From a virus (taxonomy: Duplodnaviria > Caudoviricetes), in IMG/VR virus record IMGVR_UViG_3300044541_000063, positions 1-64,000 of that record: DNA of 64,000 nt. One strand, given 5' to 3'. This document shows positions 9,327 through 55,408 of the stretch, piece by piece. Every line of letters begins with the position of its first letter. Positions within the stretch are counted from its first letter, which is position 1. A program made the position numbers and the translations under genes. The notes under the pieces were generated by a model. The model was given only the letters and a program-made list of their open reading frames with translations. It searched no databases and had not been told where the DNA came from.

Positions 9327-10305
9327 GAGGTTCTTCAAGTTCTGCCGCGAGCGTCACAGCATCTTCCTCCGCCGCGAGGCCGGGCTGCCGCGCGAGCAGT
9401 GGACGAAGGACCCGATCCTCTCGCGGTACAAGTTCACCAACGTGTACCGCGAGCTGGACCGCACGACGGCGTGGTTTCGGCACTTCGTGCGCGGGCCGCT
9501 GCGCGACAAGCCCGAGGTGATGCTGGCCACCGTACTCTTCCGAATGTTCAACAGGATCGAGGTCGGCGAGGCCATCTTCCTTCAGCCGTGCCTGCCGGGC
9601 GGGCCGGGCGAGCCGTCCATGACTGCGTTCGAGGAGTACGCGGCCGGGGCCGGCGTCAAGGCGCTCAAGCACTCTATTCTAAAGTACGTCGGGAAGACGG
9701 GACCGTACGCTACCGGAGCGTACATCATCAGCTCGCCGCCCGGTTTCAAGAAGATAGACGGCATCTTGAAGGTCGTCGACGACTTCCACAAGCGCAAGTG
9801 CGAGAACGAGCACTGCGGATACGAGGACTGGCACTGCGTCGCCAAGCACCTGATCGCAGAGCCAGAGAGACACAGCATGGAGCGCGTCTGGAACTGGCTA
9901 CGCGAGTTCGACTACCTCGGGAATTTCCACTCGTACGAGATAGCCTGCGACCTGCGCTACACGAAACTCCTGGAGGACGCGCCCGACAAGCTCACGTGGT
10001 GCTCCCCCGGTCCCGGCGCGCGCCGGGGGATGAACCGGATAGATGGTGCCGACGTGGACCGACGAGTACCCGTGGACGATCTGGTCAAGTCCATCGAGGG
10101 TCTGCTCGTTGCGTCGAGCTCACCTGGTCACTGGCCGCAACCGCGCGGCAGCGACTGGGGCGACTACTATCGACACTGGCTGCGTCCAGTCGAGGAGCAG
10201 TGGCCGGCGTGGGAGATGCGCGAGGTAGAGCACTCGCTGTGCGAGTTCGACAAGTACGAGCGCGTGCGCCACGGCGAGGGACGGCCGCGAGGAGTCTATC
10301 GATGA
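9304..10305 (+). CDS. aGPT-PPlase clade 1 / 5-hmdU DNA kinase-like helical protein
   Basis: ERHSIFLRR..G..W T.DPIL..YKFTNVYRELDRTT, GNFHSYEIACDL, GPGARRG; next to a dUMP hydroxymethylase pathway. Confidence 0.85.
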   Translation: MINMAGTKRFFKFCRERHSIFLRREAGLPREQWTKDPILSRYKFTNVYRELDRTTAWFRHFVRGPLRDKPEVMLATVLFRMFNRIEVGEAIFLQPCLPGGPGEPSMTAFEEYAAGAGVKALKHSILKYVGKTGPYATGAYIISSPPGFKKIDGILKVVDDFHKRKCENEHCGYEDWHCVAKHLIAEPERHSMERVWNWLREFDYLGNFHSYEIACDLRYTKLLEDAPDKLTWCSPGPGARRGMNRIDGADVDRRVPVDDLVKSIEGLLVASSSPGHWPQPRGSDWGDYYRHWLRPVEEQWPAWEMREVEHSLCEFDKYERVRHGEGRPRGVYR

Positions 10306-38247: not shown

Positions 38248-41200
38248 ATGTCTGTGAGCAACGTTCACCCGCTTCCGGGCCGCGTCGACAGTCCTATCCT
38301 GGACACGCTCGTCAACTTGCTGTCGGGTCTCGGCACGGCCAAGGACAAGAGCACGTCGACGCAGTTCACGCTGCAGATACTCGATCCTGGACAGCTGCTA
38401 GCCGCGTATCGCGGCGACTGGGTAGCGCGCAAGATCATCGACTGTCCAGCGCAGGACTCCACTCGCGAGTGGCGCTCGTGGCAGGCCGACAAGAAGGACA
38501 TCACCGAGATCGAGAAGACCGAGAAGGACCTCAAGCTCCAGTCGAAGGTCAAGGTCGCCATGCAGCGCGCCCGTCTGTGGGGCGGCGCGGCTCTCATCCT
38601 CGGCGTGGACCAGGGCTCGCATGACAAGGAGCTCAAGGTCGATCGCGTCAGGCAGGGTCAGCTGAAGTACGTTCACGTGGTGAACAAGCAGGACATTCAA
38701 GTAGACGGCGGCCTCGACCTCGACGTCACGTCCGAGTTCTACGGCGAGCCTGTGTCGTACACCGTCAACAGTCCGAAGACCGGCATAGTCAAGATCCATC
38801 CGTCGCGCGTCATCAGGTTCCTGGGCAACGAGATCCCCGACATAAACCTGTCGCAGGACGGATGGGGCGACAGCACGCTGCAGAGTATCTACGACGCGGT
38901 GATACAGGCCGGGCAGACCGCCGCCAACGTGGCCAGCCTAGTGAACGAGGCCAAGATCGACGTCGTTCAGATACCGGGCCTCATGCAGATGATGGGGACG
39001 CAGGAGTACCGCGCGAAGCTCATCGAGAGGTTCACGCTTGCGAACTCTATGAAGTCCCTCACCAACACTCTGATCCTCGACGGCGAGGAGGAGTGGAACA
39101 GGCTCAACGCGTCGTTCGCAGGTCTGCCAGACATCATCCGCATGTATCTGCTCATGGCCAGTGGTGCCGCTGACATTCCCGCCACGCGTCTACTCGGTCA
39201 GTCCTCTTCGGGCCTCAACGCCACTGGCCAAGAAGATACTCGCAACTACTACGACAGGCTGGCGAGTGAGCAGACCAACGACCTCACGCCTCGCCTGGAC
39301 AGGCTCGACGAGGTGCTGGTACGCAGCACCTTCGGCGACAAGCCCGAGGAGATGACGTACGACTGGAACTCGCTGTGGCAGCTGTCCAAGACCGAGGCCG
39401 CAGACGTGGCGGTGAAGAAGGCCACGGTGTACACGGCAGACGTCAACGCCGGGCTGCTCCCACCGGAGGTCATGCGCGAGGGTCGCGAGAACCAGCTCAT
39501 CGAGGATCAGGTGTATCCCGGCCTCGAGCAGGCCATCGACGAGTATGGCCAGCAGAACCTCGACGAGTACAATCAGGCCGTCGTCGCGCAGATGGGCGCG
39601 CGCGCCGCTCTCATGGCGCCGGACGATCCCAACGACCCGAACGGCGGCAAGAAGAAAGCAGCTGCGGCCAAAGCAGAGCTCACTCGCCGCAAGGCTCTAC
39701 CTCCGCCGCGTCCCCCGGCTGCGCGCTCGCAGGACTCGCGAGAGAGGGTTGTCTACACGTCCAATCCTAGAGGCGATGGTAGTGACTGGCTCTTCGCGTT
39801 CGACAAGGCCAACGCGGCCATCTGGAAGGACGGAGGTCCTTACCCAGAGCCGAGGTTCGCAGAGGACGAGACCACGCCTCGCAGCCTGTACGTGCGCCGC
39901 GACGTGCTCAACGGCGAGGAGATACTCGCGCACTTCGCAGAGCAGGGCGTCGACGTGAGCGGTGTCGAGCCGGAAGACCTTCACGTCACCGTGTTGTACT
40001 CCAGGCAGCCCGTCGACTGGATCAAGATGGGCGAGTCCAGCTACGGTCAGATCGGGCGCGGCGAGGACATGCCTGAGGGCTGCGACATGTGCGTGCGCGC
40101 CGGCGGACCGCGCGTGATGGAGGCGTACGGCGTTCCTCCCGACACGCTCGTCATGTGCTTCGCGTCGAGCGCGCTGTGCTGGCGTCACCAGGACATGGTC
40201 TATAAGGGCGCGAGCGAGGACTACGAGTTTAGTCCGCACCTGAGCATCGCTCCGTGGGACGGCACCGACCCGCGCACGTACGAGGCGTTTCAGGGAGAGA
40301 TCGAACTCGGCCCGGAGATCTTCGAGCCGTGCAAGTCGGGCGGCGCCGGGGGCGAGGCGTACGACTACGACCCCTCCGAGCCGCGCGCGCAGGCCGGTAC
40401 GGCGTTCGGCGGACAGTGGACACGCGAGGGTGCCGCGGCGGCGCGGCAGTCTCGAATCGACAAGACCCTGGCGACGCGGAGCGAGAGAGCTAAAGGCGAC
40501 GTTGGCGCGCGTCTCAAGCGCACGCGCGAGGCCGCAGTGGCCAAGTCCAAGCGCGTCACGGCAGCTGCCGTGCACAAGGCAGTCGCGTTCCTGAAGAACA
40601 ACGAGAGGCGCTCGAAGAGCATCGGCGCGCTGGCTGCGTCGCTGTCTGGCATGCTCGCAGGCGTCGACCACGTCACAGAGGCCATGATTCATCAGGCGGT
40701 GTCGGACTTCTCGTCTACGCTGGGCGTCACTGTCGCGGTGGGACGCACCAAGATGCGCGAGGCCCTCAACAAGGCCATCAAGATACGTCGCGGTCTCACG
40801 GGCGACGCGGAGGAGCCTGAGGCCGAGGACGAGGTTCTCCAGACGCTGCTCGCGCTGCTGAAGATGCTCGACGCCACTGCCGCAGACGCCCTCATCAAGG
40901 ACTGGCGCGGCACTGTCGGCGACTACAGTCCAGATCAGCCGCGCGTGCCGAGAGGCAGCGAGGGAGGCGGTCGCTTCGCGACCAGCGGCGGTGCGTACAC
41001 GGGCGTTCTCGAGAAGGCCGGCATGTTCGTGAGGTTCGTCAAGGCCAGGCGACTGGAGTCTGGTCGCGGCTACAACGCGTTCTACAAGAAGAACGACTTG
41101 AACCCGTCGGGCAATCCGCAGACCGTAGAGGTCGGTCAGCAGGTGCGCGGCGTGAAGGGCAAGTGGAACAAGAACACCGACCACGCCGGCGACTACGCGG

Positions 41201-41532
41201 CCGGCTCGGGCTGGCTGCTGCTGCAGGAGTTCTCGGAGATGGGTCGGTTCGCCGATCAGTTCTGGAGGGACGCCGCTCAGTTCATGACTCCCGGCGAGTA
41301 CGAGCGCGCCAAGCCGTACTTCAGCACGCGCACCAGGGCATTCGTAGAGGGCTTCCGCGCCACGTACTCTCCGAACGGCAAGGCGTTCGGCCTGAGCAGG
41401 GCGCGCACGTCCGAGGTGTTCGGCAGGGCCACGTCGAACATGTCGTCGGGCATCGACCAGATATTCGCGCCTCCCAAGCCGGGTCTCATCGAGCGCACCG
41501 GCGAGCGCATCGCCAAGTTCTTCGGAGTGTAG
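38248..41532 (+). CDS. Portal protein (DUF1073 family) fused to an Acb1-like 2H phosphoesterase and two further tagged cargo domains
   Basis: Y...WVARKIID.PAQD.TREW, IHPSRVIRF, GWGDS.LQ, SGLNATG..D..NYYD; HVT (39982) and HLS (40237) 2H motifs; PR tags at 40363 and 40921. Confidence 0.92.
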   Translation: MSVSNVHPLPGRVDSPILDTLVNLLSGLGTAKDKSTSTQFTLQILDPGQLLAAYRGDWVARKIIDCPAQDSTREWRSWQADKKDITEIEKTEKDLKLQSKVKVAMQRARLWGGAALILGVDQGSHDKELKVDRVRQGQLKYVHVVNKQDIQVDGGLDLDVTSEFYGEPVSYTVNSPKTGIVKIHPSRVIRFLGNEIPDINLSQDGWGDSTLQSIYDAVIQAGQTAANVASLVNEAKIDVVQIPGLMQMMGTQEYRAKLIERFTLANSMKSLTNTLILDGEEEWNRLNASFAGLPDIIRMYLLMASGAADIPATRLLGQSSSGLNATGQEDTRNYYDRLASEQTNDLTPRLDRLDEVLVRSTFGDKPEEMTYDWNSLWQLSKTEAADVAVKKATVYTADVNAGLLPPEVMREGRENQLIEDQVYPGLEQAIDEYGQQNLDEYNQAVVAQMGARAALMAPDDPNDPNGGKKKAAAAKAELTRRKALPPPRPPAARSQDSRERVVYTSNPRGDGSDWLFAFDKANAAIWKDGGPYPEPRFAEDETTPRSLYVRRDVLNGEEILAHFAEQGVDVSGVEPEDLHVTVLYSRQPVDWIKMGESSYGQIGRGEDMPEGCDMCVRAGGPRVMEAYGVPPDTLVMCFASSALCWRHQDMVYKGASEDYEFSPHLSIAPWDGTDPRTYEAFQGEIELGPEIFEPCKSGGAGGEAYDYDPSEPRAQAGTAFGGQWTREGAAAARQSRIDKTLATRSERAKGDVGARLKRTREAAVAKSKRVTAAAVHKAVAFLKNNERRSKSIGALAASLSGMLAGVDHVTEAMIHQAVSDFSSTLGVTVAVGRTKMREALNKAIKIRRGLTGDAEEPEAEDEVLQTLLALLKMLDATAADALIKDWRGTVGDYSPDQPRVPRGSEGGGRFATSGGAYTGVLEKAGMFVRFVKARRLESGRGYNAFYKKNDLNPSGNPQTVEVGQQVRGVKGKWNKNTDHAGDYAAGSGWLLLQEFSEMGRFADQFWRDAAQFMTPGEYERAKPYFSTRTRAFVEGFRATYSPNGKAFGLSRARTSEVFGRATSNMSSGIDQIFAPPKPGLIERTGERIAKFFGV

Positions 41533-42044: not shown

Positions 42045-42809
42045 ATGCGATTTCTTCTTGCTATCGTTCTCGGCGCCTTCGGCACTGCCGCGTTCGCGGC
42101 CGACATGCCGCTCAAGGCGCCGCGCGCAGCACCAGTCGTCGTCGACGGCTGGCAGGGACTCTACGTCGGCATCCAGGGCGGCGAGAACCTCGGCTCGTAC
42201 AATCCGCTGTTCGGCGTCGGCGACGTGGCCACGAAGGTCAACCTCGACGACAACGCGCCGTTCGTCGGTGCTCACATCGGCTACCTGTTCGGCGACACCA
42301 TCTACTTCGGCCCAGAGCTCGGCGTTCAGTACTGGAACTTCAAGAAGAAAGGCGATCTGGTGGCCGGCACGCCAGAGATTCCTCCGAGCGAGGAGCTTCC
42401 GGCCATCGCCGCGACGCCGGCCGTGCAGCTGCAGCAGACCATCGACTGGATGGTCTACGCCAACGTTCGTGTCGGCGCCTCGCTGATCCCGAACACTCTG
42501 ATCTACGTCACGGGCGGCGCCGCGTGGGCGCACGTGCGCGGCGAGATTCTCAACGGCGGCACGCTGGGCGCGCTGTCGGCGTTCGACCAGGGCGTTCTCG
42601 GGTGGAACGTGGGTGCCGGCCTCGAGTTCAAGCTCGGACCTAACCTCGTGCTCGGCGCCGAGTATCGGCACATGGACTTCGGCAAGGTGTCGCCGGCTAA
42701 TCCAGCGCTGGCTCTCATCGGGCTGGCACCGGCCGCACTCACGGTCGATCAGGCCATGGGGCGTCTGTCGTGGCGCTTCGCTCCTGGCGGCGGCTACGCT
42801 CAGTACTGA
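42045..42809 (+). CDS. Omp25/RopB-like 8-stranded outer-membrane beta-barrel
   Basis: Signal peptide ending AFA-ADMPLKAP, WQGLYVG..GG, GWNVGAGLEF, AEYRH.DFG, C-terminal aromatic. Confidence 0.9.
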   Translation: MRFLLAIVLGAFGTAAFAADMPLKAPRAAPVVVDGWQGLYVGIQGGENLGSYNPLFGVGDVATKVNLDDNAPFVGAHIGYLFGDTIYFGPELGVQYWNFKKKGDLVAGTPEIPPSEELPAIAATPAVQLQQTIDWMVYANVRVGASLIPNTLIYVTGGAAWAHVRGEILNGGTLGALSAFDQGVLGWNVGAGLEFKLGPNLVLGAEYRHMDFGKVSPANPALALIGLAPAALTVDQAMGRLSWRFAPGGGYAQY

Positions 42810-42810
42810 C

Positions 42811-44310
42811 GTGCTACTGACTTCGCACCACCGCTGCGTCCGGCCGCGCCTTGGGGTCGCGGTCTCAGACGCGGCGCGCGCGCGAACCGACCCGACGGGC
42901 ACTGCTCCTATCGCCTCCCGATGGGACGCAGAGTTCGCCAGGAGGTTCGCGCGCGTCAAGCGCGTGCTGCACGAGGTGATCGTGACACGCGACACGCTCG
43001 GAATAAGCGACGATCTCAAGAAGAGGGTAGACGCATCAGTCGGGGGAGCGACCAGGGCGCAGCGCGCGGCGCGCGCCCTGGACCTCGTTCGCTCGGCGGT
43101 GCACTCCGAGATTCTGGGCTCCCCCGGCTACGCCGACTCGTGGCAGAACAAGTTCGTCGCGATGGCCGTGACCAAGGGCGTCACCGACGCGTACCGGCGC
43201 ATGAAGCAGGCCGGCATGGACGTGACCCTGGAGCTCACGGTGGACGTCGGCATAGGCCAGTCGGCGCAGCGGCGCGCGGACTTCATCGCTCAGCAGAGCT
43301 ACGATCTGCTCGAGGGCATCGACGCCGACATGGCGGCGCAGATGCAGGACATCATTCAGCAGGGTCTCCTGGACGGCAAGAGTCCGCAGCAGATAGCGCG
43401 CGAGCTTGACCAGGAGCTGGACATCGGTCGCACGCGCGCGCGCACCATAGCGCGCACCGAGACCATCGGCGCTCACGCCGACGCAACGCTCGACTCGTAC
43501 GAGGAGGGCGGCATCGAGGGCGTTCAGGCCGAGGTGGAGTTCGCCACGGCCGGTGACGACAACGTCTGTCCGCAGTGTCAAGCGCTGGAGGGCAGTACCT
43601 ACACCATCGAGGACGCGCGCGACGTCATTCCAGTGCACCCGAACTGTCGGTGCGCTTGGTTGCCGGTGATCGCCAGCACCGCGGACGCAGTCACCATAGA
43701 CTACGACCCGAGCGAGCCGCGCGTGCCGGCCGGCAGTGCCGAGGGCGGCGAGTGGACCAGCGAGGGCGGTGCTGGCAGCGCGCCGGGAGTCGAGGGCAGC
43801 GGCGGCGACGCGTCTAAGCAGAGAGCGCTCGACGTGGCCAAGGAGCTCAAGTTCTCTCCCAAGAAGATGGAGTTCTCCGACGAGAACAAAAAGTTCTCAG
43901 TGGCCGGCAAGCGCATGACGAAGGGCGGCGAGTACGACCCGGCTACCGGGAAGGTGACGTTCTTCTCGCACAACGTGAGTCCGGAGGACGCCGAGCTGAT
44001 AGCGGCGCACGAGATCACCCACTCGATGTATCACGACTACTTCGGCTCCGAGGGATACCAGGAGCCGCTGATACATCTGTTCGGCAGCTACGCCACGTTC
44101 GCCAGGGAGGGCGGCGTCGACGAGTACAGCAATCAGTGGTGGAAGGCTGTCGGCGAGGGAAGGGCCAGACCTGAGCAGGCCATAAACGAGACGCTCGCGT
44201 CCATGGCCTCCATTCAGTACACCACCGGGAAGGTGGTCGGCGGCCCCGAGCATCAGGCGCTGCTCAAGAGAATACAGCGCTATCGCGGCGTGAGCGGGAC
44301 CAAGAAGTGA
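42811..44310 (+). CDS. MuF/SPP1-gp7-like minor head protein with C-terminal HExxH zincin domain
   Basis: DPTGT, RARTIARTET..AH, VCPQC, IPVHPNCRCAW; tag DYDPSEPR at 43699; AHEITH at 44008. Start uncertain. Confidence 0.88.
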   Translation: MLLTSHHRCVRPRLGVAVSDAARARTDPTGTAPIASRWDAEFARRFARVKRVLHEVIVTRDTLGISDDLKKRVDASVGGATRAQRAARALDLVRSAVHSEILGSPGYADSWQNKFVAMAVTKGVTDAYRRMKQAGMDVTLELTVDVGIGQSAQRRADFIAQQSYDLLEGIDADMAAQMQDIIQQGLLDGKSPQQIARELDQELDIGRTRARTIARTETIGAHADATLDSYEEGGIEGVQAEVEFATAGDDNVCPQCQALEGSTYTIEDARDVIPVHPNCRCAWLPVIASTADAVTIDYDPSEPRVPAGSAEGGEWTSEGGAGSAPGVEGSGGDASKQRALDVAKELKFSPKKMEFSDENKKFSVAGKRMTKGGEYDPATGKVTFFSHNVSPEDAELIAAHEITHSMYHDYFGSEGYQEPLIHLFGSYATFAREGGVDEYSNQWWKAVGEGRARPEQAINETLASMASIQYTTGKVVGGPEHQALLKRIQRYRGVSGTKK

Positions 44311-52066: not shown

Positions 52067-53869
52067 ATGAATAAGACCAAGCGCGCCAAGGCAGGCGACA
52101 ACTGGGACGAGAGCGCTCACCCGCGCGCGCCGAAGGGCGGCGCCGGGGGAGGGCAGTTCGCAGGAGGCCAGACTGCGGGCGGCATCGACCAGGGCGAGGT
52201 CGGCTCCGGCTGGCATCCAGAGAAGGACAACACCTACGCCGGCCGCAAGCCGGACGAGGCGAAGTTCGGGCGCAGCAACGAAGACTTCAGCCTGACCGAC
52301 GAGGACGAGCAGTTCGTCGAGGACCACGGCGAGGCGTTCGTGCCGGTGCTCAACGAGCTGTTCCAGGAGTACGATGCCGCGCCTGCAGACGTCGAGAATT
52401 TCATGGAAGAGATGAACCTCAGCGACAGCACCGACACGGCGGCAGCCGACGTCCTCACGGCGTTTCACAACAGCTACGTCGGCACGTTCGAGGACACCGA
52501 TGCGGCGGCGGAGAACTTCATTCACGAGACGTACCCGCGCCTACCGAAGGCGTTCACCGACGCCATCAGCAGAAGCGACCTCAGCGACAGTCTGTTCTAC
52601 AACAAGGGCTCGCCGTACGCTGCTGTCGAGTCTGACAGTGGCGAGTACATGGTCTTCAAGAAGCCGGCGTCGATGGTCTCGCGAACCAAGGACGCGAAGC
52701 CGCTGGCGTTCGAGGTCGACAGCGTGAACCTGGAGAACACTCTGCAGCTGATCGGAGTCAACGACGACGGCGCCGCGCTGGTGCTCGACGAGGGCGCGAA
52801 CATCCACCGCACGGCTGACGGCTATCTGGCGGCCTTCCCCCGGATAGCCAGAACCGGAATTCAGGTCTATCGCGGCTACGAGATGGGCGCTCCCGACAAG
52901 GACAAGGTGCGCATCTACAGGCCGGAGAGCGAGGTCTTCGCGCCCGACAGCCTGCGGTCGTACGCGCACAAGCCCGTGACCAACGACCATCCGAAGGAGG
53001 CGGTCACCAAGGACAATTGGCGCAAGTACGCCGTCGGCAACATGGCAGACGAGATCATGCGCGACGGCGGGTTCGTTCGCATTCCTATGATGATCTCTGA
53101 CGGCGACGCCATCCAGGACGTCGAGGACGGCAAGCGTGAACTCTCGCTTGGCTACACGATGGACCTCGACATGACGCCGGGCAAGACGGAGGACGGCGAG
53201 TCCTACGACGGGGTCATGAGAAACATACGAGCCAATCATCTGGCGCTGGTCACCGCCGCCAGAGGTGGAAAGGAACTCAGGGTCGGTGACTCAGGAGAAG
53301 GAGCTATCATGAAGAAGATCGTAGTTGACGGCAACACCATCGAGGTCGACGACGTTGCGGCCGTCATCGTTCCGAAGCACATCGCGATGCTGGAGAAGAG
53401 CACCGCCGACGCAGCCACCGCCCTCAAGGTCGCGCAGGACAAGACGGCTGCCGACACGGCTACCATCGCCACCCTGACGGCCGAGAACGCGACCCTGGTG
53501 AAGAAGGTCGCCGACGCGAAGCTCTCGCCGCAGCAGATCGAGCAGCTGGTGCGCGACCGCGCCGTGGTCGTCACTCAGGCGCGCGCCGTGCTGCCGACCG
53601 TCGTCACCGACAGCCGCGAGCTCTGCGACATTCGTCGTCAGGTCGTGGACGCTGCCATGGGTGCCGCGGCCAAGGGCTGGAACGACGAGCAGGTCGCGTC
53701 GTCCTTCGCCGTTCTCACCAAGGACGTCGACACCAGGGCGAACGAGACTCAGGACAGTCTCAGGACTGCTCTCAGCCAGCCTGGTCCTCGAGTCGACGCG
53801 CGCGACGCGGCGTACGGCGAGTACGAGAACAAGCTGACCAACGCCTGGAAGAAGCCGGTCGCCGCCTAG
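52067..53869 (+). CDS. DUF2213 prohead protease/scaffold with N-terminal tag and acidic ArdA-like domain
   Basis: T.DGYL...IARTG.Q.Y, Y.HKP.T.DHP, ELSLGY, IR.NHLALV..AR.G; HPR tag at 52097; acidic domain 52290-52663. Confidence 0.88.
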   Translation: MNKTKRAKAGDNWDESAHPRAPKGGAGGGQFAGGQTAGGIDQGEVGSGWHPEKDNTYAGRKPDEAKFGRSNEDFSLTDEDEQFVEDHGEAFVPVLNELFQEYDAAPADVENFMEEMNLSDSTDTAAADVLTAFHNSYVGTFEDTDAAAENFIHETYPRLPKAFTDAISRSDLSDSLFYNKGSPYAAVESDSGEYMVFKKPASMVSRTKDAKPLAFEVDSVNLENTLQLIGVNDDGAALVLDEGANIHRTADGYLAAFPRIARTGIQVYRGYEMGAPDKDKVRIYRPESEVFAPDSLRSYAHKPVTNDHPKEAVTKDNWRKYAVGNMADEIMRDGGFVRIPMMISDGDAIQDVEDGKRELSLGYTMDLDMTPGKTEDGESYDGVMRNIRANHLALVTAARGGKELRVGDSGEGAIMKKIVVDGNTIEVDDVAAVIVPKHIAMLEKSTADAATALKVAQDKTAADTATIATLTAENATLVKKVADAKLSPQQIEQLVRDRAVVVTQARAVLPTVVTDSRELCDIRRQVVDAAMGAAAKGWNDEQVASSFAVLTKDVDTRANETQDSLRTALSQPGPRVDARDAAYGEYENKLTNAWKKPVAA

Positions 53870-54454: not shown

Positions 54455-55408
54455 ATGCGCAATTTCGTACGAGACGCTCAGCAGGCTCTGGGATTTCTCA
54501 CGTCCCAGGTCAGCTCGATCGAGGCTACCGTGGTCAAGGTGCTTTACCCTGACATTCAGTACCCTCAGCTCATTCCGGTCGACACCAGTGCCAACGAGTG
54601 GGCCAAGTCGGTTACTTGGTTCTCGATGGACAAGCTCGGCCGCGCGCAGTGGTTTCAGCACCTCGCGAACGACATGCCGCTGGCAGACGTCCAGCGCACG
54701 AAGTTCGAGCAGGGTATCGAGATGGCCGGCATCGGATATCGCTACGATCTCGAGGAGATCGGGCAGGCCATGATGATTCCCGGGATGAACCTCACGACCG
54801 ACAAGGCCGAGGCGGCCCGCCGGGCGGCCGAGGAGTTCATCGACGACATTGCGCTTCGCGGAAGCACGGTGCGCAACTGGACTGGTCTGTTCAACGACGC
54901 GAACGTGGTCAACACGACTGCTCCAGCTGACGGTGTCGGTGCTCTAACAACCTGGGCATCGAAGGTGACGACGCCAGATCTCATTATCAGAGACATCAAC
55001 TTGGCCATCACTGGTGTCTACACTGGGTCTTTGACGGTCGAGATGGCAGACACGGTGCTCCTGCCAGTGGCAGAGCTGGCAAGGATCGCGACTCTACCAC
55101 GCTCGACTGCGTCTGACATGTCAGTCTTGGACTGGGTGACCAAGTACAATGTCTACACTGCGCAGACTGGGATACCCATCATGATGCGCGGTGTGCGAGG
55201 TCTAGAAGTCGCAGGACCTGGTCCCTCGCAGCGTATCATCGCGTACAAGCGGGATCCTCAGATTCTCAAGCTGCATCTGCCGATGCCTCACCGTTTCCTG
55301 CCGATCTGGCAGACCGGTCCCATGACGTTCGACATTCCCGGCATTCTCCGTCTGGGCGGCGTCGAGGTCAGGCGCCCTGGTGGTATTCGGTACATCAGCG
55401 GCATCTAG
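54455..55408 (+). CDS. Major capsid protein (DUF2184 family)
   Basis: Y.DIQYPQLIPVDT, GY.YDLEEI, GLFN, R.GGVE.R.P. Confidence 0.9.
   Translation: MRNFVRDAQQALGFLTSQVSSIEATVVKVLYPDIQYPQLIPVDTSANEWAKSVTWFSMDKLGRAQWFQHLANDMPLADVQRTKFEQGIEMAGIGYRYDLEEIGQAMMIPGMNLTTDKAEAARRAAEEFIDDIALRGSTVRNWTGLFNDANVVNTTAPADGVGALTTWASKVTTPDLIIRDINLAITGVYTGSLTVEMADTVLLPVAELARIATLPRSTASDMSVLDWVTKYNVYTAQTGIPIMMRGVRGLEVAGPGPSQRIIAYKRDPQILKLHLPMPHRFLPIWQTGPMTFDIPGILRLGGVEVRRPGGIRYISGI

What the first reader, a model, noticed from the sequence alone, without database searches (positions are those of the whole stretch)
52067..52700. Acidic ArdA-like DNA-mimic domain fused in front of the prohead protease
Seen: after the HPR tag, a 124-aa stretch (52290-52663) has 28 Asp/Glu against 6 Lys/Arg. 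It contains F..SYVGTFEDTD.AAENFIHE.Y..LP..F...I....L...LF......GEYMVF, which resembles the C-terminal part of ArdA. The DUF2213 protease starts only at about 52800. Known: ArdA inhibits type I restriction enzymes by DNA mimicry. Inference: an anti-restriction protein is co-assembled with the protease and delivered with the DNA. I do not know this fusion as described.
Basis: partly seen in the sequence, partly recalled or inferred. Interest (0 to 1): 0.75.

Follow-up and report, generated by a model that had tools for sequence, protein, structure and literature searches.

The report
ArdA-like DNA mimic on head scaffold
An uncultured 76-kb phage carries, fused to the front of its head-scaffolding protein, a very acidic domain that is a trimmed-down relative of the ArdA anti-restriction DNA mimic, which suggests (but does not prove) that the phage loads a ready-made restriction inhibitor into its capsid.

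Summary
ORF 52067-53869 (600 aa) has a 124-aa stretch with 28 Asp/Glu and 6 Lys/Arg, in front of a DUF2213 domain (aa 248-409).

The ArdA resemblance is real remote homology:
- A 10-member family profile matches an ArdA profile at 96% probability (P 1.6e-9). The best of 200 column shuffles scored 21.9 against 60.3.
- Pfam's ArdA model is the only extra, sub-threshold hit on three relatives.
- An AlphaFold model built without any ArdA sequence (pLDDT 85) has ArdA 2W82 as its top match among 48,161 chains (Z 6.5).
- 12 of the 18 best viral-structure matches are named antirestriction or ArdA.

The domain lacks ArdA domain 1. It keeps the four-helix bundle, domain 3, the essential VF motif and a net charge of -22. 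Published work says domain 1 is dispensable.

The domain is accessory. 78 of 120 DUF2213 homologues have no N-terminal extension, and a free-standing tagged copy lies between portal and protease in an unrelated phage.

"Protease" is doubtful: the body matches the Pa193 gp24 scaffolding protein, and the genome has no S78-type (HK97-like) protease.

Packaging, cleavage, delivery and anti-restriction activity are all inferred. The cargo tag was noted earlier in this scan on other DNA.

Verdict: a new variant of a known kind.

The parts
52053..52057 (+). Shine-Dalgarno GGAGG, 9 nt upstream of the ATG
   Evidence: sequence read
52067..53869 (+). 600-aa ORF (P0001): tag, linker, ArdA-like domain, linker, DUF2213, coiled-coil scaffold tail
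52097..52159 (+). cargo tag, aa 11-31 (W-D-E..H-P-R...G-G-G-Q-F type); 8 copies at module borders in the portal, MuF, the 4xART protein and here
52160..52261 (+). Gly-rich linker, aa 32-65, conserved within the close clade; low confidence in the model
52298..52474 (+). four-helix part of the acidic domain (aa 78-136; model helices 19-28, 30-43, 47-56, 66-77), the structural counterpart of ArdA domain 2
   Evidence: domain definition from PMC2731889
52475..52660 (+). ArdA domain-3-like part (aa 137-198): strand, three helices, two strands; holds the Y-V-G, L-P and V-F positions that align with the conserved ArdA G112, P135 and F164 (R64 numbering)
52376..52663 (+). stretch aligned to ArdA by hhalign (aa 104-199, matching R64 ArdA 86-166)
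   Evidence: control
52652..52657 (+). V196-F197, counterpart of the essential ArdA VF motif; F is invariant in all 10 family members
   Evidence: PMC2731889
52667..52807 (+). linker aa 201-247 between the acidic domain and DUF2213 (net charge -5); possible processing region, untested
52808..53293 (+). DUF2213 / PF09979 (Pa193 gp24 family), aa 248-409
   Evidence: 181 bits; 9b40_G, E 2.2e-7
53294..53866 (+). C-terminal helical scaffold-like tail, aa 410-600
   Evidence: phrog_530 spans aa 245-597; Pa193 gp24 helix-turn-helix, aa 286-326 of gp24, at capsid vertices (PMC11456595)
53930..54412 (+). cement/decoration protein (PF22758), context
54455..55408 (+). major capsid protein (PF09950), context

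Best explanation
The first 200 residues of this phage's head-scaffolding protein form an accessory cargo module. It consists of a short conserved tag and a Gly-rich linker, followed by a roughly 135-aa domain that descends from ArdA. The domain lacks ArdA's N-terminal domain 1. It keeps a four-helix bundle and the C-terminal strand-helix domain with the VF motif, and its net charge is -22.

Shown: the homology and fold, the accessory and modular nature of the domain, and its position in a head-assembly protein behind a tag that also heads other effector-like modules.

Inferred: the scaffold body carries the domain into the procapsid. The domain is separated there or on ejection. [quoted passage not shown]

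My odds: ArdA homology about 0.9; accessory cargo rather than core scaffold part about 0.75; actually delivered and anti-restriction about 0.45.
For: Homology:
- hhalign of the 10-member family against 74 ArdA sequences gives Prob 96.3%, P 1.6e-9, over 80 columns that reach the ArdA C-terminus.
- Controls score far lower: 200 column shuffles reach at most 21.9 and the reversed alignment 16.0, against 60.3 for the real one.
- Pfam ArdA is the only extra hit on P0133 (24.4 bits, E 5e-5), P0132 (18.8 bits) and P0004 (16.3 bits).
- My own ArdA HMM scores all members at 14-18 bits, empirical p about 2e-4.

Fold:
- The AF2 model was built from family sequences only: pLDDT 84.9, four helices then b-a-a-a-b-b.
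- ArdA 2w82_A is rank 1 of 48,161 chains, Z 6.5, rmsd 3.2 A, 109 residues aligned, and the only hit that spans the whole model.
- 12 of the 18 best BFVD matches are named antirestriction or ArdA.
- Charge is -17 to -24 across full-length members, against an ArdA median of -28.
- Literature: domain 1 can be deleted and domains 2+3 bind the methyltransferase core; the VF motif is essential (PMC2731889).

Cargo context:
- 78 of 120 DUF2213 homologues have no N-terminal extension.
- The close relative P0126 lacks the domain.
- Other relatives carry ChaB, DUF6582 or Peptidase_S78 in the same slot.
- A free-standing tagged copy, P0004, lies between the portal and an S78 protease in an HK97-type head module.
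- The same tag heads four ART domains and modules on the portal and MuF. The portal also carries an Acb1 domain, upstream of its first tag.
- Pa193 gp24, a homologue of the body, is found in mature virions by mass spectrometry (PMC11456595).
Against: - There is no experimental or proteomic evidence for packaging, cleavage, ejection or anti-restriction activity. The phage is uncultured.
- The window protein itself gets no Pfam ArdA hit, and all Pfam hits on relatives are below the 27-bit cut-off.
- Foldseek E-values are weak (0.46 against PDB, 0.008 at best in BFVD), and Z 6.5 alone is middling.
- No S78-type (HK97-like) protease was found in the genome (other protease families were not searched), so the release step has no identified enzyme.
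- A scaffold is made in about 100 or more copies. Keeping that many -22-charged domains next to packed DNA is electrostatically awkward, so most copies may leave with the scaffold.
- In the close clade the domain nearly always sits directly next to DUF2213, and the one member without it keeps a poly-Asp/Glu stretch. That would also fit an assembly role for negative charge.
Confidence: 0.5

Rival explanations
1. An ArdA-derived domain that now serves capsid assembly. As a negatively charged N-terminal part of the scaffold, it might keep the scaffold off DNA, contact the basic inner capsid surface, or drive the scaffold's exit by charge repulsion when DNA enters. It would never act in the next host.
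For: In the close clade it always lies directly next to DUF2213. P0126, which lacks it, keeps a long Asp/Glu run at the same place. Pa193 gp24 contacts the capsid interior through an acidic turn (PMC11456595). No protease for release was identified.
Against: 78 of 120 homologous scaffolds work without any N-terminal extension. The same domain exists free-standing in a phage with a different capsid, portal and protease family. It sits behind the tag that heads enzyme modules such as ARTs. The ArdA-specific fold and VF motif are conserved, not just the charge.
Confidence: 0.22
2. A delivered DNA mimic whose target is not a type I R-M enzyme. The target could be another DNA-binding defence (for example BREX-type or other nucleases) or a host nucleoid or transcription protein.
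For: Loss of domain 1, which in ArdA is modelled to face the HsdR subunits (PMC2731889), and only about 13% identity to ArdA leave room for a changed target. The phage carries several other counter-defence modules (Acb1, ARTs).
Against: Domains 2+3 are precisely the part reported to bind the type I methyltransferase core. No evidence here points to any other target.
Confidence: 0.15
3. The domain acts in the producing cell late in infection, as part of the abundant scaffold protein in the cytoplasm, and is not carried over to the next host.
For: It would be expressed at high level with the head genes. No release mechanism is known.
Against: Late expression is the wrong time to protect incoming DNA. 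The tag and head-module position shared with a free-standing copy point to the capsid.
Confidence: 0.08
4. Chance resemblance: a generic acidic helical segment without ArdA ancestry.
For: Composition inflates HMM scores; 1 of 5000 shuffles of the window sequence reached its score. Foldseek E-values are above 0.001.
Against: Column-shuffle control: 60.3 against at most 21.9. ArdA is the top structural match for a model made without ArdA sequences. BFVD hits are enriched for antirestriction proteins. The three most conserved ArdA positions in domains 2-3 (G112, D143, F164) align with conserved family residues.
Confidence: 0.05

Closest known systems
ArdA (Tn916 Orf18, PDB 2W82; ColIb-P9/R64 ArdA; Pfam PF07275)
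   Same: Homologous C-terminal region with the VF motif and the G and D positions. Four-helix bundle plus b-a-a-a-b-b domain. Strong net negative charge. ArdA is the top structural match.
   Different: It has no domain 1, which is the best-conserved part of classical ArdA. It scores below the Pfam threshold. It is not a stand-alone early or leading-region gene: it is fused behind a cargo tag to a head-scaffolding protein. Only 10 members were found, all in uncultured phages.
T4 internal protein IPI* and Alt (capsid-targeting sequence, cut by the gp21 prohead protease)
   Same: The logic is the same: a ready-made counter-defence protein loaded into the head through the assembly core and injected with the DNA (own knowledge; summarised in PMC5512222).
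   Different: IPI* is unrelated in sequence and fold, is not a DNA mimic and targets GmrSD. T4 uses a short N-terminal CTS on separate proteins, not a fusion to the scaffold. Cleavage here is unproven.
Phage P1 DarA/Hdf/DarB/DdrB defence-against-restriction head proteins
   Same: Anti-restriction proteins built into the head during morphogenesis and effective against type I restriction (PMC5512222; PMC12810830, listed).
   Different: Unrelated folds. By the account in PMC5512222, P1 DarA and DarB bind and protect the transferred DNA rather than mimic DNA. They are separate genes.
T7 Ocr
   Same: An acidic DNA mimic of a phage that blocks type I R-M (PMC3439906 and PMC4872106, listed).
   Different: A different fold; made as the first early protein after entry, not carried in the virion.
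Phage-type polyvalent proteins (Iyer et al. 2017, PMC5512222)
   Same: Effector domains strung onto head proteins (portal, MuF) for delivery. An ArdA domain is listed among polyvalent-protein domains.
   Different: In that paper ArdA is found mainly in Firmicutes conjugative-element proteins together with ArdC-N. A scaffold (DUF2213) carrier and a domain-1-less ArdA are not described in what I read.
Pa193 gp24 scaffolding protein (PDB 9B40, Pfam PF09979)
   Same: The body of the protein (aa 248-409 and the helical tail) is homologous. gp24 persists in virions.
   Different: Pa193 gp24 has no N-terminal extension; its DUF2213 starts near residue 21.

Membership tests
ArdA (Pfam PF07275) | Scores above the Pfam gathering threshold (27 bits) | tested here: not met
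   No hit for the window protein or its N-terminus at E <= 1. Relatives score 24.4, 18.8 and 16.3 bits.
ArdA (Pfam PF07275) | Detectable homology to the ArdA C-terminal region (end of domain 2 plus domain 3) | tested here: met
   hhalign Prob 96.3%, P 1.6e-9, R64 ArdA 86-166. Shuffle control.
ArdA (Pfam PF07275) | N-terminal domain 1 with its conserved motifs | tested here: not met
   HMM and hhalign alignments start at ArdA position 75-103. None of the 30 positions that are >=80% conserved in R64 residues 9-68 is covered.
ArdA (Pfam PF07275) | Four-helix bundle followed by a three-stranded sheet / three-helix domain | tested here: met
   AF2 model pLDDT 84.9 with exactly this order. 2w82_A rank 1, Z 6.5, 109 residues aligned. 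BFVD antirestriction hits. Domain definitions from PMC2731889.
ArdA (Pfam PF07275) | Essential VF motif in the middle strand near the C-terminus | tested here: met
   V196-F197 aligns with ArdA V163-F164. F is invariant in all 10 members.
ArdA (Pfam PF07275) | Large net negative charge (DNA-like surface) | tested here: met
   aa 66-200: 30 D/E, 8 K/R, net -22, pI 4.05. ArdA set median -28. A helical pattern of charge on the surface was not examined.
ArdA (Pfam PF07275) | Dimer through domain 3; binds and inhibits type I R-M enzymes | not testable with these tools
   Needs SEC-MALS, ITC and restriction-alleviation assays.
Capsid-loaded counter-defence cargo (T4 IP/Alt type, phage polyvalent proteins) | Encoded in the head module, attached to or targeted by a head-assembly protein | tested here: met
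   Fused to the DUF2213 scaffold next to the cement and capsid genes. The free-standing copy lies between portal and protease.
Capsid-loaded counter-defence cargo (T4 IP/Alt type, phage polyvalent proteins) | Present in virions, processed, and ejected into the host | not testable with these tools
   No proteomics for this uncultured phage. Only the Pa193 gp24 homologue is known to be in virions.
DUF2213 / Pa193 gp24 scaffolding family (PF09979) | Pfam hit over threshold and similarity to the solved member | tested here: met
   181.3 bits against a cut-off of 22. 9b40_G E 2.2e-7.
Prohead protease (as labelled by PHROGs) | Recognisable protease fold or catalytic residues | tested here: inconclusive
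   Only the PHROG label 'head maturation protease' supports it. No S78 or S78_2 match in the genome. Some homologues carry a separate S78 domain N-terminal to DUF2213. DUF2213 itself was not folded here.

The most novel reading that the evidence does not exclude
ArdA-type DNA mimics can be virion cargo. A domain-1-less ArdA, headed by a portable cargo tag, is loaded into the procapsid either as an N-terminal fusion to the scaffolding protein or as a free tagged protein. It is injected ready-made, so that type I restriction is blocked before any phage gene is expressed. The N-terminus of DUF2213 scaffolds would then be a general, exchangeable slot for capsid cargo (ArdA-like, ChaB, DUF6582, protease).
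Probability: 0.4. Interest if true: 0.75.

Novelty: new variant of a known kind. Interest (0 to 1): 0.62.

Why it matters
ArdA and Ocr are the textbook DNA mimics, and both are made after the DNA has entered the cell. If a phage instead ships an ArdA-type mimic inside the capsid, that closes the window in which unprotected DNA meets type I enzymes. It would add a DNA mimic to the short list of packaged anti-restriction proteins (T4 IPI*, P1 Dar).

The family is also a natural minimal ArdA (domains 2+3 only). That matches the deletion data for ColIb-P9 ArdA and could help define the smallest working mimic.

Finally, it shows that the N-terminus of Pa193 gp24-type scaffolds is an exchangeable slot. 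This is of practical interest for loading proteins into phage heads, and it is a way to find further counter-defence cargo in metagenomes.

Tried and rejected
**Direct searches with the window's N-terminus that gave nothing**
- Pfam, PHROGs, NCBIfam and PDB sequence searches found nothing useful.
- The 3-sequence profile against PDB sequences did not find ArdA.
- The ESM Atlas gave only sub-threshold 'Kinase-PolyVal' fragments at 0.84, which I disregarded.

**Searches for further family members**
- phmmer over 1.84 billion representatives gave three hits. One of them, P0003, is a repeat artefact.
- Pattern scans of viral, genome and metagenome contigs added nothing.
- tblastn against 50,697 GenBank phages found no member.
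- The extra members came only from listing homologues of the scaffold body.

**First attempts that were too weak**
- The first AF2 model, from 3 sequences, was poor (pLDDT 59) and its fold hits were not usable: ArdA was rank 5-6.
- The first hhalign against a narrow enterobacterial ArdA alignment gave only 5% probability.

**Leads checked and dropped**
- P0125 (398 aa) looked like a relative without the domain, but it is cut by the contig end.
- I looked for an internal start at Met203 that would give a short scaffold. There is no convincing ribosome-binding site.
- Classical viral ArdA genes (63 loci) show no tag and no head fusion.
- The own genome has no PF07275 match at E <= 10.

Full report
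**What is there**

The window is the first 64 kb of a 75.8-kb virus record with direct terminal repeats. Its GC content is about 63% and nearly all genes lie on the + strand.

ORF 52067-53869 encodes 600 aa (P0001). A GGAGG lies 9 nt before the ATG. Pfam places DUF2213 (PF09979) at aa 248-409 with 181 bits. PHROG 530, 'head maturation protease', covers aa 245-597. Downstream lie a cement protein (PF22758) and a PF09950 major capsid protein.

It has exactly 28 Asp/Glu and 6 Lys/Arg, and the quoted motif is at aa 133-197. The stated start, 52290, is two bases out of frame.

**Is it ArdA-like?**

Direct searches with the window's N-terminus found nothing. A full HMMER pass over 1.84 billion representatives found only two real relatives:
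- P0002, a fused form.
- P0004, a free-standing 174-aa protein.

Listing homologues of the scaffold body showed seven more fused members that had been hidden by 50% clustering. That makes ten in all.

Pfam's own ArdA model is the only additional hit on three of them, always below the 27-bit cut-off and always on profile positions of about 60-150 of 155:

| Member | Bits | E-value |
|---|---|---|
| P0133 | 24.4 | 5e-5 |
| P0132 | 18.8 | 0.0027 |
| P0004 | 16.3 | 0.016 |

I built an ArdA alignment of 74 sequences from R64 ArdA relatives and 63 IMG/VR loci. Results against it:
- Its HMM scores every family member at 14-18 bits over the same region. Residue shuffles put the empirical p near 2e-4 for the acidic window sequence, so composition does inflate the nominal values.
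- The profile-profile comparison is clearer. With three sequences it gives 85%.
- With ten sequences it gives Prob 96.3%, P 1.6e-9, over 80 columns from R64 ArdA residue 86 to the C-terminus.
- 200 column-shuffled versions of the family alignment score at most 21.9, and the reversed alignment scores 16.0, against 60.3 for the real one.
- The only three positions that are >=80% conserved in ArdA domains 2-3 (G112, D143, F164) align with conserved family residues. G112 and F164 face the invariant Gly and Phe. D143 faces an Asp in most members, though the window protein has Ser there.

**Fold**

A model from three sequences was poor (pLDDT 59). A model from the ten family sequences alone, with no ArdA rows and no templates, reached pLDDT 84.9 and pTM 0.76. 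It shows four helices followed by strand, three helices and two strands.

That is the order McMahon et al. describe for ArdA domain 2 (a four-helix bundle) and domain 3 (a three-stranded sheet with three helices) (PMC2731889).

Fold searches with this model:
- Against 48,161 PDB representatives, ArdA 2w82_A is rank 1: Z 6.5, rmsd 3.2 A, 109 residues aligned. It is the only match that spans the whole model; the next hits cover just the helical bundle.
- Foldseek ranks 2w82_A second, with the highest probability in the list (0.69) but E 0.46.
- In BFVD, 12 of the 18 best matches are named antirestriction or ArdA. The best has prob 1.00, TMq 0.51 and rmsd 3.1. Several are only 95-120 aa long.

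Each structural score is modest alone. Together with the profile match they make homology very likely, which I put at about 0.9.

**How it differs from ArdA**

Domain 1 is absent. In my ArdA set, domain 1 holds 30 of the 33 positions that are >=80% conserved, which explains why Pfam misses the family.

[quoted passage not shown] The key step there is binding of domains 2 and 3 to the methyltransferase core, and the VF motif is essential. The family keeps that motif: V196-F197 here, with F invariant.

Net charge is -22 over aa 66-200 and -17 to -24 in the full-length members, against a median of -28 for ArdA.

A 2013 paper reports, in its title, that ArdA dimer-interface mutations affect dimerisation and antimodification but not antirestriction (PMC3906837, listed). 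I did not read it.

**Carrier and context**

The body of the protein matches the Pa193 gp24 'scaffolding protein' (9b40_G, E 2.2e-7). That protein is found in mature virions by LC-MS and forms a helix-turn-helix pentamer under the capsid vertices (PMC11456595).

Calling it a protease rests only on the PHROG label:
- The genome has no S78 or S78_2 match.
- In about a dozen homologues a real Peptidase_S78 domain sits N-terminal to DUF2213.

Among the 120 best homologues:
- 78 have no N-terminal extension.
- 39 have an extension of more than 60 aa, carrying S78, ChaB, DUF6582 or this domain.
- Zinc ribbons also occur; where I checked the position (P0135) the ribbon lies C-terminal to DUF2213.
- One close relative, P0126 (73% identical in the body), lacks the ArdA-like domain but keeps a poly-Asp/Glu run.

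So the domain is an accessory occupant of an exchangeable slot.

The free-standing P0004 lies between a PF04860 portal and a Peptidase_S78 gene, next to an HK97-type capsid gene. Its start overlaps the portal stop. That phage has a different head lineage, but the gene occupies the same kind of position, and it also begins with a tag-like peptide.

In the window the tag occurs eight times, at module borders: twice in the portal C-terminus, once in MuF, four times in an 801-aa protein with four ART domains, and once here. The portal also carries an Acb1 domain at aa 546-696, upstream of its first tag. Earlier notes of this scan describe similar tags on head cargo in other genomes. These are unchecked leads that agree with what I see here.

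**Mechanism**

The best reading is as follows. The scaffold body takes the tagged ArdA-like module into the procapsid. The module is separated at the tag or in the aa 201-247 linker. It leaves with the DNA and blocks type I R-M enzymes by DNA mimicry.

The homology, the fold, the charge, the accessory status and the head-module context are shown. Packaging, cutting, ejection and the target are inferred.

Points against this reading:
- No protease has been identified.
- Many -22-charged domains would have to sit beside packed DNA.
- The domain's constant adjacency to DUF2213 in the clade would also fit an assembly role.

**Novelty**

No GenBank phage has the domain. The 63 classical viral ArdA genes are stand-alone and untagged.

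The polyvalent-protein survey lists ArdA mainly in Firmicutes conjugative elements with ArdC-N, not on head scaffolds. A full-text search found no paper that links ArdA to capsid packaging.

I class this as a new variant of a known kind.

Noticed in passing
window 38248-41532 (+): 1094-aa portal (Phage_portal_3, aa 49-396) fused to an Acb1 anti-CBASS 2H phosphoesterase domain (aa 546-696, E 3e-19), followed by two further tagged modules of unknown family.
   Followed up: partly
window 44307-46712 (+): 801-aa protein with four ADP-ribosyltransferase stretches (ADPrib_exo_Tox, E 1e-84; plus ART), each preceded by the same tag. It lies downstream of a MuF-like gene (42613-44310) that also ends in a tagged module.
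   Followed up: partly
window 40363, 40921, 43699, 44433, 44991, 45561, 46119, 52097: Eight copies of a roughly 20-aa tag (D-[YW]-x-P-x-x-P-R...G-G-x-[WF] type, usually right after an Asp) at module borders in four head-module proteins. A tag-like peptide also heads free-standing P0004 in L001 at nt 10076.
   Followed up: partly
proteins P0138, P0145, P0174, P0179 and others (homologues): DUF2213 scaffold homologues with a Peptidase_S78 domain, a ChaB domain or DUF6582 in the N-terminal slot. P0174 has S78, ChaB and DUF2213 in one chain. This suggests DUF2213 is a scaffold part rather than the protease.
   Followed up: partly
window 47332-52060 (+): Seven ORFs between the ART gene and the scaffold gene have no Pfam hit. 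One (47332-48009) weakly matches a PHROG minor tail protein. 48879-50552 is a 557-aa Pro/Ala-rich repetitive protein.
   Followed up: no
P0003: 415-aa protein made of about seven near-identical 58-aa repeats. It hit the query only through a short P-R-A-F-T-D word and is an unrelated repeat artefact.
   Followed up: no
BFVD hits A0A6J7WX36, A0A6J5MKX1, A0A6J5MD41, A0A8S5ML75: Short (95-120 aa) phage proteins named 'Antirestriction' match the model with TMt 0.57-0.62. They may be further natural ArdA forms without domain 1.
   Followed up: no
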